Shown here: piece by piece, positions 5,739 through 7,542 of the stretch | Numbering within the stretch: the stretch's first letter is position 1 | Layout of the letters: every line of letters starts with the position of its first letter | From: Candidatus Pacearchaeota archaeon | GTDB taxonomy: Archaea; Nanobdellota; Nanobdellia; Pacearchaeales; UBA284 | Direction of reading: 5' to 3' | DNA length: 64,000 nt | NCBI GenBank assembly: GCA_026016245.1 | Contig: CP061211.1 | Location: 424,879 to 488,878, forward strand | Translations under genes and position numbers: made by a program | The notes under the pieces: generated by a model | Seen by the model: the letters and a program-made list of their open reading frames with translations, nothing else | What the model was told of the DNA's origin: nothing | Databases searched by the model: none

Positions 5739-6932
5739 TTGTTACTGAAAAATAATAAAATGAGAATGAAAGAATTAAGGCAAATAATAGAAAAATTTCC
5801 TAAGAGGAAAGGGACTCAAAACATAAATCAAGATCCGATAGTTAATGAAGGTTATCCTGGAACTTTTAATTCAAGTTACTCAGAAGGATATTGGTCAGAA
5901 TTATTTGGACCAAATTTAGAGATATATGATTTAATTGTACATAAAATACAACCCTGCATTAGATTTAGTGATTTCATTAATAAAATATTGAAAGATACTT
6001 CTAAAATTCATTTATCTTGCTTCGATATGGGTGACATAAGTGGGGCAGTTAATTTTACATCAAGTAAAAACCATAAGAGAATAAGCAGAGAAAATGTAAA
6101 TGCAATGTTGACTTTCTTAACAAATTTAGGTTTCAAGCTTCTAGATATTTATATTACTTGTTTTCCTAGAGGAAATTTAAATGAAATAAGTAAACTCAAT
6201 TATGGAAGAGAATCATTTAATTTTTATATAAAACCAGACCCAAATATAGATGAATTTAAAAAATTTTTACCTAAAGAAAATATTATATTAACAAAAAAAG
6301 ATACTTTTTTATGTATAGATCTTGAAGGATTTAATAAAACACTTAATGGGTACAGAAATGAGATTTTATTTAAAACAAATAAAGGGATGATAGATATTGG
6401 AACTATGGAAAATCTTTATCTTATGCCACAAAAAGAAAATAATAAAATTAGAGGTTACATTAATAAGGGTTTATTTTCAATTGCAGGAATTGGCCTTGAA
6501 AGAGTTTTACTTTGTAAAAATAATTTTAATCATATTATAGAGTGTGACCATATTTATCCTTTATATCAACAAATATTAAAAGACTTTAAGAAAAAAGACG
6601 AACATGGGGCATTTATTTATACAGAATCATTAAGAAGCTTGCATAGGGTATTTAGTGAAAATAACTACAGAAATTTATCTAAGAATAGGAAAAGAAAAGT
6701 TAAAAAATTTTTACAGCAGATTTATCATATTTCAAAAGAAAATATTAAAAATTATTTAGAAATTAATGCACAATTGCAGGATTATTATCCTGAATTAAAA
6801 AAAGGAATAGAGAATACTAATAATGAAATCATTGGATATTTTGAAAGGAGAAAATCTTCTTTTTTAGAAAGAAAATTAGAAAGAAAAAATATTAGAAATC
6901 TTGGTACCAAACAAAAGGCTGTTCAAGGCTGA
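5739..6932 (+). CDS. class II aminoacyl-tRNA synthetase-like protein (AlaRS catalytic-core-like, divergent, standalone)
   Basis: KIQPCIRFSDF...HLSCFDMGD resembles the archaeal AlaRS QPCIR / HxTxFEM region; IAGIGLERV resembles the GxGLER motif. Confidence 0.4.
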   Translation: MLLKNNKMRMKELRQIIEKFPKRKGTQNINQDPIVNEGYPGTFNSSYSEGYWSELFGPNLEIYDLIVHKIQPCIRFSDFINKILKDTSKIHLSCFDMGDISGAVNFTSSKNHKRISRENVNAMLTFLTNLGFKLLDIYITCFPRGNLNEISKLNYGRESFNFYIKPDPNIDEFKKFLPKENIILTKKDTFLCIDLEGFNKTLNGYRNEILFKTNKGMIDIGTMENLYLMPQKENNKIRGYINKGLFSIAGIGLERVLLCKNNFNHIIECDHIYPLYQQILKDFKKKDEHGAFIYTESLRSLHRVFSENNYRNLSKNRKRKVKKFLQQIYHISKENIKNYLEINAQLQDYYPELKKGIENTNNEIIGYFERRKSSFLERKLERKNIRNLGTKQKAVQG

Positions 6933-7542
6933 GGCCTGGGCATGCTGTATTTATCCAGCACTGGATTTTTGGGAAATTTTCCAGCTGATTTATATCCAGA
7001 GTGTCGAATGTGAAGATGTAAGCTTTCTTTTTTTGTTTTTCTAGTTTCTTTTTTAATTCCATGGCTTGCTTTAATTTGTTTTGTCCAGGCTTTATTGAGA
7101 CAAGAATACCATAAGTTTGCGCTGACAGGAATTTAAGCTTTTGGCCTTTTTTCCTTGCCTTTGCTTTGTTTATATCTTCTGTTTTTAGTTTTGAGAATTG
7201 ATTTGTAAGGGGATTATAGATATAGATTGGTTTGTTTGTTGCTAATGCGAGCTGTAAAGGGTGAAATTTTCCTGATCCTATATAGAGAAAGGCTTGAACT
7301 TTATCTTGTATTGATATAGCTGCTTTTACATTGCAACCTAGGATTTGGCCTTTTTCCAGAAACTTGGATTTTCCTATTATTACTTTCTTCTTGTGTTTTT
7401 CTAGAAAAGCTTTGATTTTTTCTAAGCTATTTGTGTGTTGGATTGTTGTTATTAATCCTATGGTTTCTGGTAGCTTGTTTGGTTTTATATTTTTAAGAGA
7501 ACAAGAAGCTGTATATTTAGAAGGTAAGAATAGAATTTTCAT
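6892..7542 (-). CDS. dph2: diphthamide synthesis Dph2-like protein (apparently lacking first domain)
   Basis: GQILGCNVKAA...LYIGSGKFHPLQLALAT...ILVSIKPGQ...NTACPGLS aligns to domains 2-3 of archaeal Dph2 as I recall it. Confidence 0.55.
   Translation of the reverse strand: MKILFLPSKYTASCSLKNIKPNKLPETIGLITTIQHTNSLEKIKAFLEKHKKKVIIGKSKFLEKGQILGCNVKAAISIQDKVQAFLYIGSGKFHPLQLALATNKPIYIYNPLTNQFSKLKTEDINKAKARKKGQKLKFLSAQTYGILVSIKPGQNKLKQAMELKKKLEKQKKKAYIFTFDTLDINQLENFPKIQCWINTACPGLSLEQPFVWYQDF

What the first reader, a model, noticed from the sequence alone, without database searches (positions are those of the whole stretch)
6892..7542. Dph2-like diphthamide synthesis gene lacking the first domain
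The 216-aa product aligns to domains 2 and 3 of archaeal Dph2 (from memory of the Pyrococcus sequence), including two Cys-bearing segments, but the N-terminal domain with the first cluster-ligating Cys is absent. The start ATG lies only two codons after an in-frame TAA that ends the upstream SepF gene, so there is no room for an upstream exon. In characterised Dph2 one Cys from each of three domains ligates the 4Fe-4S cluster.
Basis: partly seen in the sequence, partly recalled or inferred. Interest (0 to 1): 0.55.

Follow-up and report, generated by a model that had tools for sequence, protein, structure and literature searches.

The report
C-terminal half of split Dph2
This gene is the larger piece of a diphthamide-synthesis enzyme (Dph2) that tiny DPANN archaea are already known to encode as two separate genes, so the missing first domain is ordinary; the one unusual detail is a glycine in place of an otherwise invariant active-site arginine.

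Summary
Window 6892-7542 (-) encodes a 216-aa Dph2 homologue that starts about 90 residues into the canonical enzyme and lacks the first cluster-ligating Cys.

It is not a crippled or novel enzyme. It is the C-terminal piece (CTD) of a split dph2 gene, already reported for DPANN archaea including Pacearchaeota (Narrowe 2018; Dombrowski 2019; Podar 2013).

- The identical protein comes from a Pacearchaeota MAG.
- The 120 best CTD homologues are 158-263 aa (117 of them 200-246 aa), and all 80 related genome loci carry a stop just upstream.
- A large family of stand-alone 80-110-aa N-terminal pieces (NTD) carries the missing motifs PDG...GxCD...GH.
- In relatives, NTD and CTD lie adjacent, a few kb apart, or on different contigs of one MAG, always split at the same point.

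The NTD gene is not in this 64-kb window, and I could not reach the rest of this genome.

One new-looking detail: the window protein belongs to a monophyletic clade (68 sequences) in which the SAM-pocket arginine (PhDph2 R289, yeast Dph1 R370) is glycine. Clade relatives still encode Dph6 and an EF-2 with the intact HRG loop.

Verdict: already known kind, low-to-moderate interest.

The parts
6892..7542 (-). dph2 C-terminal piece (CTD, 216 aa): the last strands of domain 1 plus domains 2 and 3 of 2-(3-amino-3-carboxypropyl)histidine synthase
   Evidence: PF01866 E=1.6e-48 over profile 80-273/302. PDB Dph2 hits at E 1e-27 to 7e-31. AlphaFold model pLDDT 91; Foldseek matches only Dph2 structures, TMq 0.72-0.82 and TMt about 0.5. 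Identical to a protein of a Pacearchaeota MAG.
7333..7335 (-). Cys70 codon, the second [4Fe-4S] ligand (equivalent to PhDph2 Cys163)
   Evidence: Invariant in 31/31 sequences and 217/217 split CTDs. Aligned to GQVLGCN in three solved Dph2 structures. Codon verified.
6940..6942 (-). Cys201 codon, the third [4Fe-4S] ligand (equivalent to PhDph2 Cys287)
   Evidence: Invariant. Aligned to ACPR in the solved structures. Codon verified.
6934..6936 (-). Gly203 codon, at the position of the otherwise invariant SAM-pocket arginine (PhDph2 R289 / CmnDph2 R285 / MsDph2 R291 / yeast Dph1 R370)
   Evidence: The alignments show acpG versus acpR in all three solved Dph2. Arg is present in 149/149 other split CTDs and invariant in 30 full-length Dph2; Gly is present in 68/68 sequences of the window's clade. 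The role of this Arg is taken from PMC10669111.
7261..7263 (-). His94 codon (GSGKFHP), a retained SAM-pocket residue (equivalent to CmnDph2 His180)
   Evidence: 99-100% conserved in both classes. Pocket residue list from PMC10669111.
7081..7083 (-). Gln154 codon (KPGQ), a retained SAM-pocket residue (equivalent to CmnDph2 Gln237)
   Evidence: 100% conserved.
7543..7551 (-). SepF stop codon (TAA) plus a 6-nt spacer before the CTD start; a tight operon junction
   Evidence: Sequence. SepF-CTD adjacency holds in all 11 G-class loci examined, with 0-26 nt between the SepF stop codon and the CTD start in the six junctions read, in any frame.
7549..7923 (-). SepF gene directly upstream (context; same transcription unit, with prefoldin beta at 8002..8361 and L37Ae at 8532..8747)
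   Evidence: PF04472 E=3.6e-11 and PF01920. The L35Ae-L11-L37Ae-PfdB-SepF-CTD synteny is seen in related loci.

Best explanation
The gene encodes the C-terminal subunit of a split archaeal Dph2, the non-canonical radical-SAM enzyme that transfers the 3-amino-3-carboxypropyl group of SAM to the target histidine of EF-2. This is the first step of diphthamide synthesis. An ancestral dph2 was cut once, in the loop after the third strand of domain 1. The upstream piece (NTD, 80-110 aa) carries the first cluster cysteine in a GxCD motif. The downstream piece (this gene) carries the other two cysteines and most of the SAM pocket. The two polypeptides are inferred to reassemble, with the CTD's N-terminal strand completing the NTD sheet. 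That would bring the three Cys together around one [4Fe-4S] cluster, presumably as an (NTD-CTD)2 equivalent of the archaeal homodimer. In this lineage the CTD gene sits at the end of an L37Ae-prefoldin-SepF operon and the NTD gene is expected elsewhere in the roughly 0.7-Mb genome. What is shown: homology, fold, the conserved split point, the existence and distribution of NTD genes, and retention of Dph6 and the EF-2 target loop in the clade. What is inferred: that this genome has the NTD gene, that the pieces assemble, and that the enzyme is active despite Gly at the Arg position.
For: (1) Homology and fold match Dph2 domains 2-3, with both Cys retained.
(2) The 120 best homologues are 158-263 aa, 117 of them 200-246 aa, down to 45% identity, and come from Pacearchaeota, Woesearchaeota and Nanoarchaeota. 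In 80/80 GTDB loci the stop-to-stop ORF is only 207-276 codons.
(3) Both Cys, GSGxFH and KxGQ are invariant in the short family, which indicates purifying selection.
(4) A stand-alone NTD family exists. A seed at L066:5483..5782 gave 130 hits, the 120 listed all 67-115 aa. In an exhaustive profile search, 98 of the best 148 new representatives are 135 aa or shorter. A second profile gave 5979 hits, the best 120 all 82-126 aa. Invariant motifs are PDG, FGxCDxP and GH.
(5) All arrangements occur: adjacent with a 1-nt spacer (L081, L085); 0.5-7 kb apart (L066 and 11 metagenome loci); on different contigs of one MAG (GCA_014728835.1, with the NTD on WJKY01000028 and the CTD on WJKY01000053). None of the 80 NTD loci is fused.
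(6) The split point is the same in every case compared: two adjacent pairs, one 4-kb-apart pair and the window CTD, aligned to PhDph2, and the N-terminus MKxLFxPAKY is shared across 31 aligned CTDs.
(7) Literature reports split Dph1/2 NTD and CTD genes in DPANN, including Pacearchaeota (PMC6143161, PMC6349945) and nanoarchaeote Nst1 (PMC3655853).
(8) Genomes of the window's own clade keep Dph6 (L014, L174) and an EF-2 with the loop HEDAIHRGPAQ (L175).
Against: No NTD gene was found in the 64-kb window, either with three profiles and all filters off or by motif regex. None lies within 10 kb of the CTD in the 11 loci of the window's clade. No listed NTD sits on a contig with the same length as any contig of this clade, although only about 4% of NTD hits were listed. 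The clade lacks the SAM-pocket Arg, whose alanine substitution abolishes diphthamide synthesis in yeast Dph1, so normal activity is not guaranteed.
Confidence: 0.75

Rival explanations
1. Second, specialised subunit. Genomes of this clade also carry a canonical split pair (NTD plus an Arg-containing CTD, as in L085). The SepF-linked Gly-type CTD would then be an extra paralogue forming an asymmetric complex, analogous to eukaryotic Dph1-Dph2, where one subunit has lost catalytic SAM-pocket features.
For: The clade-wide, monophyletic loss of an Arg that is essential in yeast Dph1 is easier to tolerate if a catalytic copy exists. A MAG labelled Pacearchaeota carries an adjacent NTD plus an Arg-type 246-aa CTD (L085). 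The genome scan kept only the 80 best loci, so a paralogue at 33% identity would not have been listed.
Against: SepF-linked CTDs in 7 related lineages are Arg-type, so the SepF-linked gene looks like the ordinary orthologue. All other pocket residues (G69, H94, Q154, and E207 in place of Asp) and both Cys are 96-100% conserved in the clade, unlike eukaryotic Dph2. No second PF01866 gene occurs in the window or in the 11 clade loci.
Confidence: 0.1
2. N-terminal piece lost. The clade works with a two-domain protein alone, with a cluster held by two Cys plus another ligand, or with an altered function.
For: The NTD has never been seen in this clade with the data I could reach. The active-site loop is remodelled, CPR-x-x-x-DD becoming CPG-L-S-L-E, which could accompany a change of mechanism.
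Against: The split point and the N-terminal strand MKxLFxPxKY are conserved as in lineages that have the NTD. In the isolated model that segment is unstructured with lower confidence, as expected for a strand that needs a partner. Dph6 and the EF-2 target loop are retained in the clade. The absence of evidence rests on less than 10% of the genome.
Confidence: 0.08
3. Decaying remnant: a truncated pseudogene of dph2 with no function.
For: It lacks one third of the canonical protein and one catalytic Arg.
Against: The ORF is intact and of conserved length in hundreds of lineages down to 41% identity, with invariant catalytic residues and conserved operon position.
Confidence: 0.02
4. SepF-Dph2 fusion by stop-codon readthrough of the in-frame TAA.
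For: SepF and the CTD are in the same frame, separated by TAA plus two codons.
Against: In relatives the two genes are in frames 0, +1 or +2, with variable spacers. One in three is the chance expectation.
Confidence: 0.01

Closest known systems
Split Dph1/2 (NTD and CTD genes) of DPANN archaea (Narrowe et al. 2018, PMC6143161; Dombrowski et al. 2019, PMC6349945; split DPH2 of nanoarchaeote Nst1, Podar et al. 2013, PMC3655853)
   Same: Same taxon group (Pacearchaeota are named explicitly). The CTD-only gene has the same architecture, and stand-alone NTD genes exist in relatives. The split point is shared with Woesearchaeota and Nanoarchaeia sequences.
   Different: The partner NTD was not located for this genome. 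The window's clade carries Gly instead of the SAM-pocket Arg. I found no mention of this in the papers I read, but I did not search the literature for it specifically.
Archaeal Dph2 homodimer (P. horikoshii 3LZC/3LZD, Ca. M. nitroreducens 6BXM-O, M. smithii 6Q2D/E)
   Same: 30-35% identity over domains 2-3 in the structure-based alignments, and the same fold (TMq 0.72-0.82). Cys163/Cys287 equivalents and the Gly/His/Gln pocket residues are present.
   Different: It lacks residues 1 to about 88, including Cys59. It lacks the C-terminal tail after about residue 305. Arg289 is Gly, and Asp293/Asp294 are Glu/Gln.
Eukaryotic Dph1-Dph2 heterodimer
   Same: The enzyme is built from two different polypeptides, and one polypeptide deviates from the archaeal SAM pocket.
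   Different: Eukaryotic Dph1 and Dph2 are each full-length three-domain paralogues. Here one three-domain unit is cut in two. Apart from the Arg, the pocket is conserved, unlike eukaryotic Dph2.

Membership tests
Dph1/Dph2 superfamily (Pfam PF01866 Diphthamide_syn) | Significant match to the family profile above the gathering threshold | tested here: met
   166.2 bits against a cutoff of 33.2, E=1.6e-48, covering profile positions 80-273 of 302.
Archaeal full-length Dph2 (NCBIfam TIGR03682 equivalog) | Score above the equivalog cutoff with full-length coverage | tested here: not met
   157.7 bits against a cutoff of 202.8; only profile positions 89-276 of 308 are matched.
Archaeal full-length Dph2 | Three cluster-ligating Cys, one per domain, in one polypeptide (PhDph2 Cys59, Cys163, Cys287) | tested here: not met
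   Only the Cys163 and Cys287 equivalents (C70, C201) are present; the Cys59 region is absent.
Archaeal full-length Dph2 | SAM-pocket residues Gly158, His180, Gln237, Arg285, Asp289 (CmnDph2 numbering) | tested here: not met
   G69, H94 and Q154 are present. Arg is replaced by Gly203 and Asp by Glu207.
Archaeal full-length Dph2 | Fold of domains 2 and 3 | tested here: met
   AlphaFold pLDDT 91. The top 15 Foldseek PDB hits are all Dph2, with TMq 0.71-0.82.
Split Dph2 of DPANN, CTD subunit | Stand-alone ORF beginning at the conserved split point (M-x-[ILV]-[LF]-F..., equivalent to PhDph2 residue about 89), with a stop codon just upstream | tested here: met
   80/80 genome loci have only short ORFs.
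Split Dph2 of DPANN, CTD subunit | A separate NTD gene (PDG...GxCD...GH, 80-110 aa) in the same genome | not testable with these tools
   Absent from the 64-kb window, and the rest of the 710,724-bp contig could not be fetched. Present in relatives: L066, L081, L085, 31 metagenome loci, and the WJKY01 MAG pair.
Split Dph2 of DPANN, CTD subunit | DPANN host | tested here: met
   The identical protein is named as from a Candidatus Pacearchaeota archaeon MAG. Relatives are Pacearchaeota, Woesearchaeota and Nanoarchaeota.
Functional diphthamide pathway | Downstream enzyme(s) and an EF-2 with the target His loop in the same lineage | tested here: met
   Shown in clade relatives, not in the window. 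Dph6 (PF01902) occurs in L014 and L174. EF-2 in L175 carries HEDAIHRGPAQ. The window itself holds neither EF-2 nor Dph6; Dph5 was sought only by a phmmer scan with a recalled query and by Pfam on 10 ORFs.
Functional diphthamide pathway | ACP transfer to EF-2 / diphthamide on EF-2 | not testable with these tools
   Requires biochemistry or mass spectrometry.
Eukaryotic-type non-catalytic Dph2 subunit | General loss of the SAM pocket while the cluster Cys are kept | tested here: not met
   Only the Arg is lost and Asp becomes Glu. Gly, His and Gln are 99-100% conserved in the clade.

The most novel reading that the evidence does not exclude
The window protein belongs to a monophyletic Pacearchaeota clade of SepF-linked Dph2 C-terminal pieces. 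In this clade the otherwise invariant SAM-pocket arginine is glycine and the following loop is remodelled (CPGLSLE[NQH]). The most novel reading not excluded is that this clade does not run a conventional split Dph2. Either it has lost the N-terminal piece and works with a two-Cys cluster site, or it is a second, specialised subunit beside a canonical pair, which would be a convergent analogue of the eukaryotic Dph1-Dph2 asymmetry.
Probability: 0.15. Interest if true: 0.6.

Novelty: already known. Interest (0 to 1): 0.25.

Why it matters
The main result mostly removes a false alarm. A Dph2 without domain 1 in a DPANN genome is the expected CTD half of a split gene. It should not be read as a degenerate enzyme, and it should not be scored as a complete single-copy marker, a point already made by Narrowe et al. 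2018.

The comparative data add some detail:
- The fission happened once, at one site inside domain 1, not at a domain border.
- The two halves then drifted from adjacent, to kilobases apart, to unlinked.
- One clade, which includes this organism, replaced an arginine that mutagenesis in yeast Dph1 found essential. If confirmed as active, that clade is a natural experiment on how the ACP radical is positioned in this non-canonical radical-SAM enzyme.

Tried and rejected
- NTD in the window: HMMs from three PDB Dph2 N-termini, from four sequences, and from 120 stand-alone NTDs, all with filters off, plus motif regexes, found nothing.
- NTD near the CTD in relatives: 1 of 80 GTDB loci (L066) and none of the 11 loci of the window's clade.
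The lists show at most 120 of up to 5979 hits, so this is uninformative for the window genome.
- Guessing the clade's NTD from AT-rich composition and looking up clusters: no names, no long contigs.
- The look-up of encoding contigs for the window protein returned only a 12.9-kb Logan contig (L084), not the 710-kb record, so walking the genome was impossible.
- Supplementary tables of Narrowe et al. are not held. Zhu et al. 2011 is not held. Searches for the Cys-mutant data gave nothing relevant.
- SepF-CTD readthrough fusion: rejected because the frame varies in relatives.
- Neighbours of NTD genes elsewhere: S3Ae and topoisomerase I were searched for in the window and are absent. DHH, DUF357 and VTT also neighbour NTD genes elsewhere but were not searched for in the window.
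- No EF-2 (motif regex) and no Dph6 (phmmer) in the window. Dph5 was sought only by phmmer with a sequence recalled from memory and not verified, and by Pfam on 10 of the window's ORFs.
- The 390-aa ORF convergent with the CTD reminded me of an AlaRS core. Pfam, NCBIfam and PDB sequence searches gave no hit, so I dropped the idea.

Full report
**The observation**

The minus-strand ORF at 6892..7542 (216 aa, ATG start) exists as described.
- It matches Pfam PF01866 (Diphthamide_syn) at E=1.6e-48, but only over profile positions 80-273 of 302.
- It scores 157.7 bits on the archaeal Dph2 equivalog TIGR03682, over positions 89-276 of 308, below the 202.8-bit cutoff.
- phmmer against PDB sequences finds only Dph2 as significant hits: M. 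smithii 6Q2D, Ca. Methanoperedens 6BXM and P. horikoshii 3LZC.
- Query residues 22-213 align to 3LZC chain residues 149-335. The chain therefore carries a 36-residue tag, and query residue 22 equals native residue 113.
- C70 (GQILGCN) and C201 (NTACPG) align with Cys163 and Cys287; the Cys59 region is missing. The three ligands are named in PMC11048331.
- The junction reads GAA AAA ATT TAA ACA AGG ATG on the minus strand, so the start is two codons after the in-frame stop of a SepF gene (PF04472).
- An AlphaFold model built on 31 homologues has pLDDT 91. Its only strong Foldseek PDB matches are the 15 Dph2 chains (TMq 0.71-0.82, TMt about 0.5), meaning it covers about two thirds of Dph2.

**It is a conserved short form, not an accident**

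- The identical protein comes from a MAG named Candidatus Pacearchaeota archaeon, on a 710,724-bp contig. The best 120 homologues are 158-263 aa (117 of them 200-246 aa), down to 45% identity, and are named Pacearchaeota, Woesearchaeota or Nanoarchaeota.
- In an alignment of 31 of them, both Cys, GSGxFH, KPGQ and the N-terminus MKxLFxPAKY are conserved.
- A scan of one genome per GTDB species found more than 566 loci. In all 80 kept, the stop-to-stop ORF around the match is only 207-276 codons, so none can hold a first domain.

**The phenomenon is already published**

- Narrowe et al. [quoted passage not shown]
- Dombrowski et al. 2019 list Parvarchaeota, Pacearchaeota, Woesearchaeota and Altiarchaeota (PMC6349945).
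- Podar et al. 2013 list DPH2 among the split genes of nanoarchaeote Nst1, as genes 222 and 440 (PMC3655853).

**The missing piece**

- A crude profile of three PDB N-termini found one hit in the 80 loci: L066:5483..5782, a 99-aa ORF with LQLPDG, FGACD and FGH, 4.2 kb upstream of that locus's CTD.
- Used as a seed, it gave 130 homologues, the 120 listed all 67-115 aa and all PF01866. Their alignment has invariant PDG, FGxCDxP (the Cys59 equivalent) and GH.
- An exhaustive profile search of 1.84 billion representatives gave 1488 hits. Of the best 148 new representatives, 98 are 135 aa or shorter.
- A second profile search gave 5979 hits, the best 120 all 82-126 aa, one of them named as from a Pacearchaeota MAG.
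- Every arrangement is seen:
  - NTD and CTD adjacent with a 1-nt spacer and a frame shift (L081, L085).
  - Among 80 metagenome NTD loci: none fused, 15 within 100 nt of a CTD, 11 at 0.5-7 kb, and 54 with no CTD in the stretch fetched (that script's printed totals also count the loci L081-L093).
  - In the Woesearchaeota MAG GCA_014728835.1, the NTD is on contig WJKY01000028 and the CTD on WJKY01000053.
- The split point is the same in all cases compared. The NTD ends a few residues after FGH, and the CTD begins at the equivalent of PhDph2 89-PTIFVPAF.
- In an AlphaFold model of a full-length relative (pLDDT 90), the strands are 21-25, 48-52 and 74-78, then 90-93 and 95-98, then helix 103-117. 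The cut therefore lies inside domain 1, after its third strand.
- The CTD N-terminal segment (residues 1-20) has no regular structure in the isolated model, and its first ten residues have the lowest confidence (mean pLDDT 69). This is what I would expect of a strand that needs the partner. Assembly by strand complementation is my inference, not a result.

**What I could not do**

- The NTD gene is not in this window. Three profiles with all filters off and motif regexes were negative.
- It is also not within 10 kb of the CTD in any of the 11 loci of the window's own clade.
- The window covers less than 10% of the contig, and no tool could fetch the rest. The look-up of the protein returned only a 12.9-kb Logan contig.
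- Matching contig lengths between NTD and CTD hit lists paired only L066. With about 4% of NTD hits listed, this says nothing about the window genome.

**A detail that looks new**

- In all three solved Dph2 structures, the motif after the third Cys is ACPR...DD. The window has ACPGLSLEQ.
[quoted passage not shown] R370A and D374A abolish diphthamide synthesis in yeast (PMC10669111).
- Among 217 unique split CTDs, 149 have Arg and 68 have Gly. The Arg is also invariant in 30 full-length Dph2.
- The 68 Gly sequences form one clean bipartition of a neighbour-joining tree, with within-clade identity down to 41%.
- The other pocket residues are 96-100% conserved in the clade: G69, H94, Q154, and E207 in place of Asp.
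- All 11 clade loci are SepF-linked. Seven other SepF-linked loci are Arg-type, so the Gly form is derived within the same orthologous gene.
- Clade genomes keep Dph6 (PF01902; L014 and L174) and an EF-2 with the canonical loop HEDAIHRGPAQ (L175). The pathway therefore appears to be in use.

**Alternatives**

- A SepF-Dph2 readthrough fusion is rejected: the frame relation is 0, +1 or +2 in relatives.
- A pseudogene is rejected by the conservation pattern.
- Two readings stay open at low probability: a second specialised subunit beside a canonical pair, or loss of the NTD in this clade.
- Both can be settled by one profile search of the complete genomes, which I could not run.

**Verdict**

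Novelty: already known. Interest is low to moderate, carried only by the Arg-to-Gly clade and the unverified partner gene.

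Noticed in passing
window 5760-6932 (+): A 390-aa ORF convergent with the CTD, overlapping its 3' end by 41 nt. It has no Pfam, NCBIfam or PDB sequence match. It was found only in the same organism's Logan contig (L084) and in none of the 80 related loci. A vague resemblance to an AlaRS catalytic core (QPCIR..., GIGLER) rests on memory only and was not supported by any search.
   Followed up: partly
window 9916-11736 (-): A 606-aa protein with a nucleotidyltransferase (NTP_transf_2/Polbeta) domain and long lysine-rich flanks. It is conserved at the head of the L35Ae-L11-L37Ae-prefoldin-SepF-CTD cluster in Pacearchaeota-type loci (L001-L003, L014, L174, L175). 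Function unknown.
   Followed up: partly
window 53780-56178: Three neighbouring genes with weak or moderate matches to DUF4145, a STAND NTPase (nSTAND3, E=6e-4) and Fic/DOC (E=4e-9). Possibly a small toxin or defence cluster inside an otherwise housekeeping region.
   Followed up: no
L012 (NJBN01000005.1, 1-13285): A DPANN-type CTD (54% identical) and an archaeal L10e sit at the very end of a 306-kb contig labelled 'candidate division LCP-89 bacterium'. They are followed by TIM (PF00121, E=6e-100), TyrRS and polyprenyl synthase genes. If the record's bacterial label is right, the archaeal-type end suggests a chimeric join; I did not test the origin of the other genes.
   Followed up: partly
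L007, L017, L026, L031, L035 and about 20 more loci: Many GTDB records titled 'uncultured Methanosarcinales archaeon' (binchicken assemblies) carry the DPANN-type split CTD. The organism labels of these records are probably wrong.
   Followed up: no
L115:142-3594, L138:9056-12667, L093:1885-5139, L088-L090: Stand-alone NTD genes have recurrent neighbours: ribosomal S3Ae directly upstream, and topoisomerase I or a DHH phosphoesterase directly downstream. DUF357 and a VTT-domain gene occur in L087 and L091. These may serve as landmarks for finding the NTD in complete genomes.
   Followed up: partly
L175:10671-12149 and L176:3406-4884: In two loci of the Gly clade, a 492-aa radical-SAM/SPASM protein is convergent immediately downstream of the CTD, followed by S12-S7-EF-2. 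I did not check whether this is more than coincidence.
   Followed up: no
L087:1-2858: A PEP-utilising enzyme (PPDK_N/PEP-utilizers) interrupted by an intein with a LAGLIDADG endonuclease, in the Woesearchaeota MAG that provided the same-genome NTD/CTD pair.
   Followed up: no
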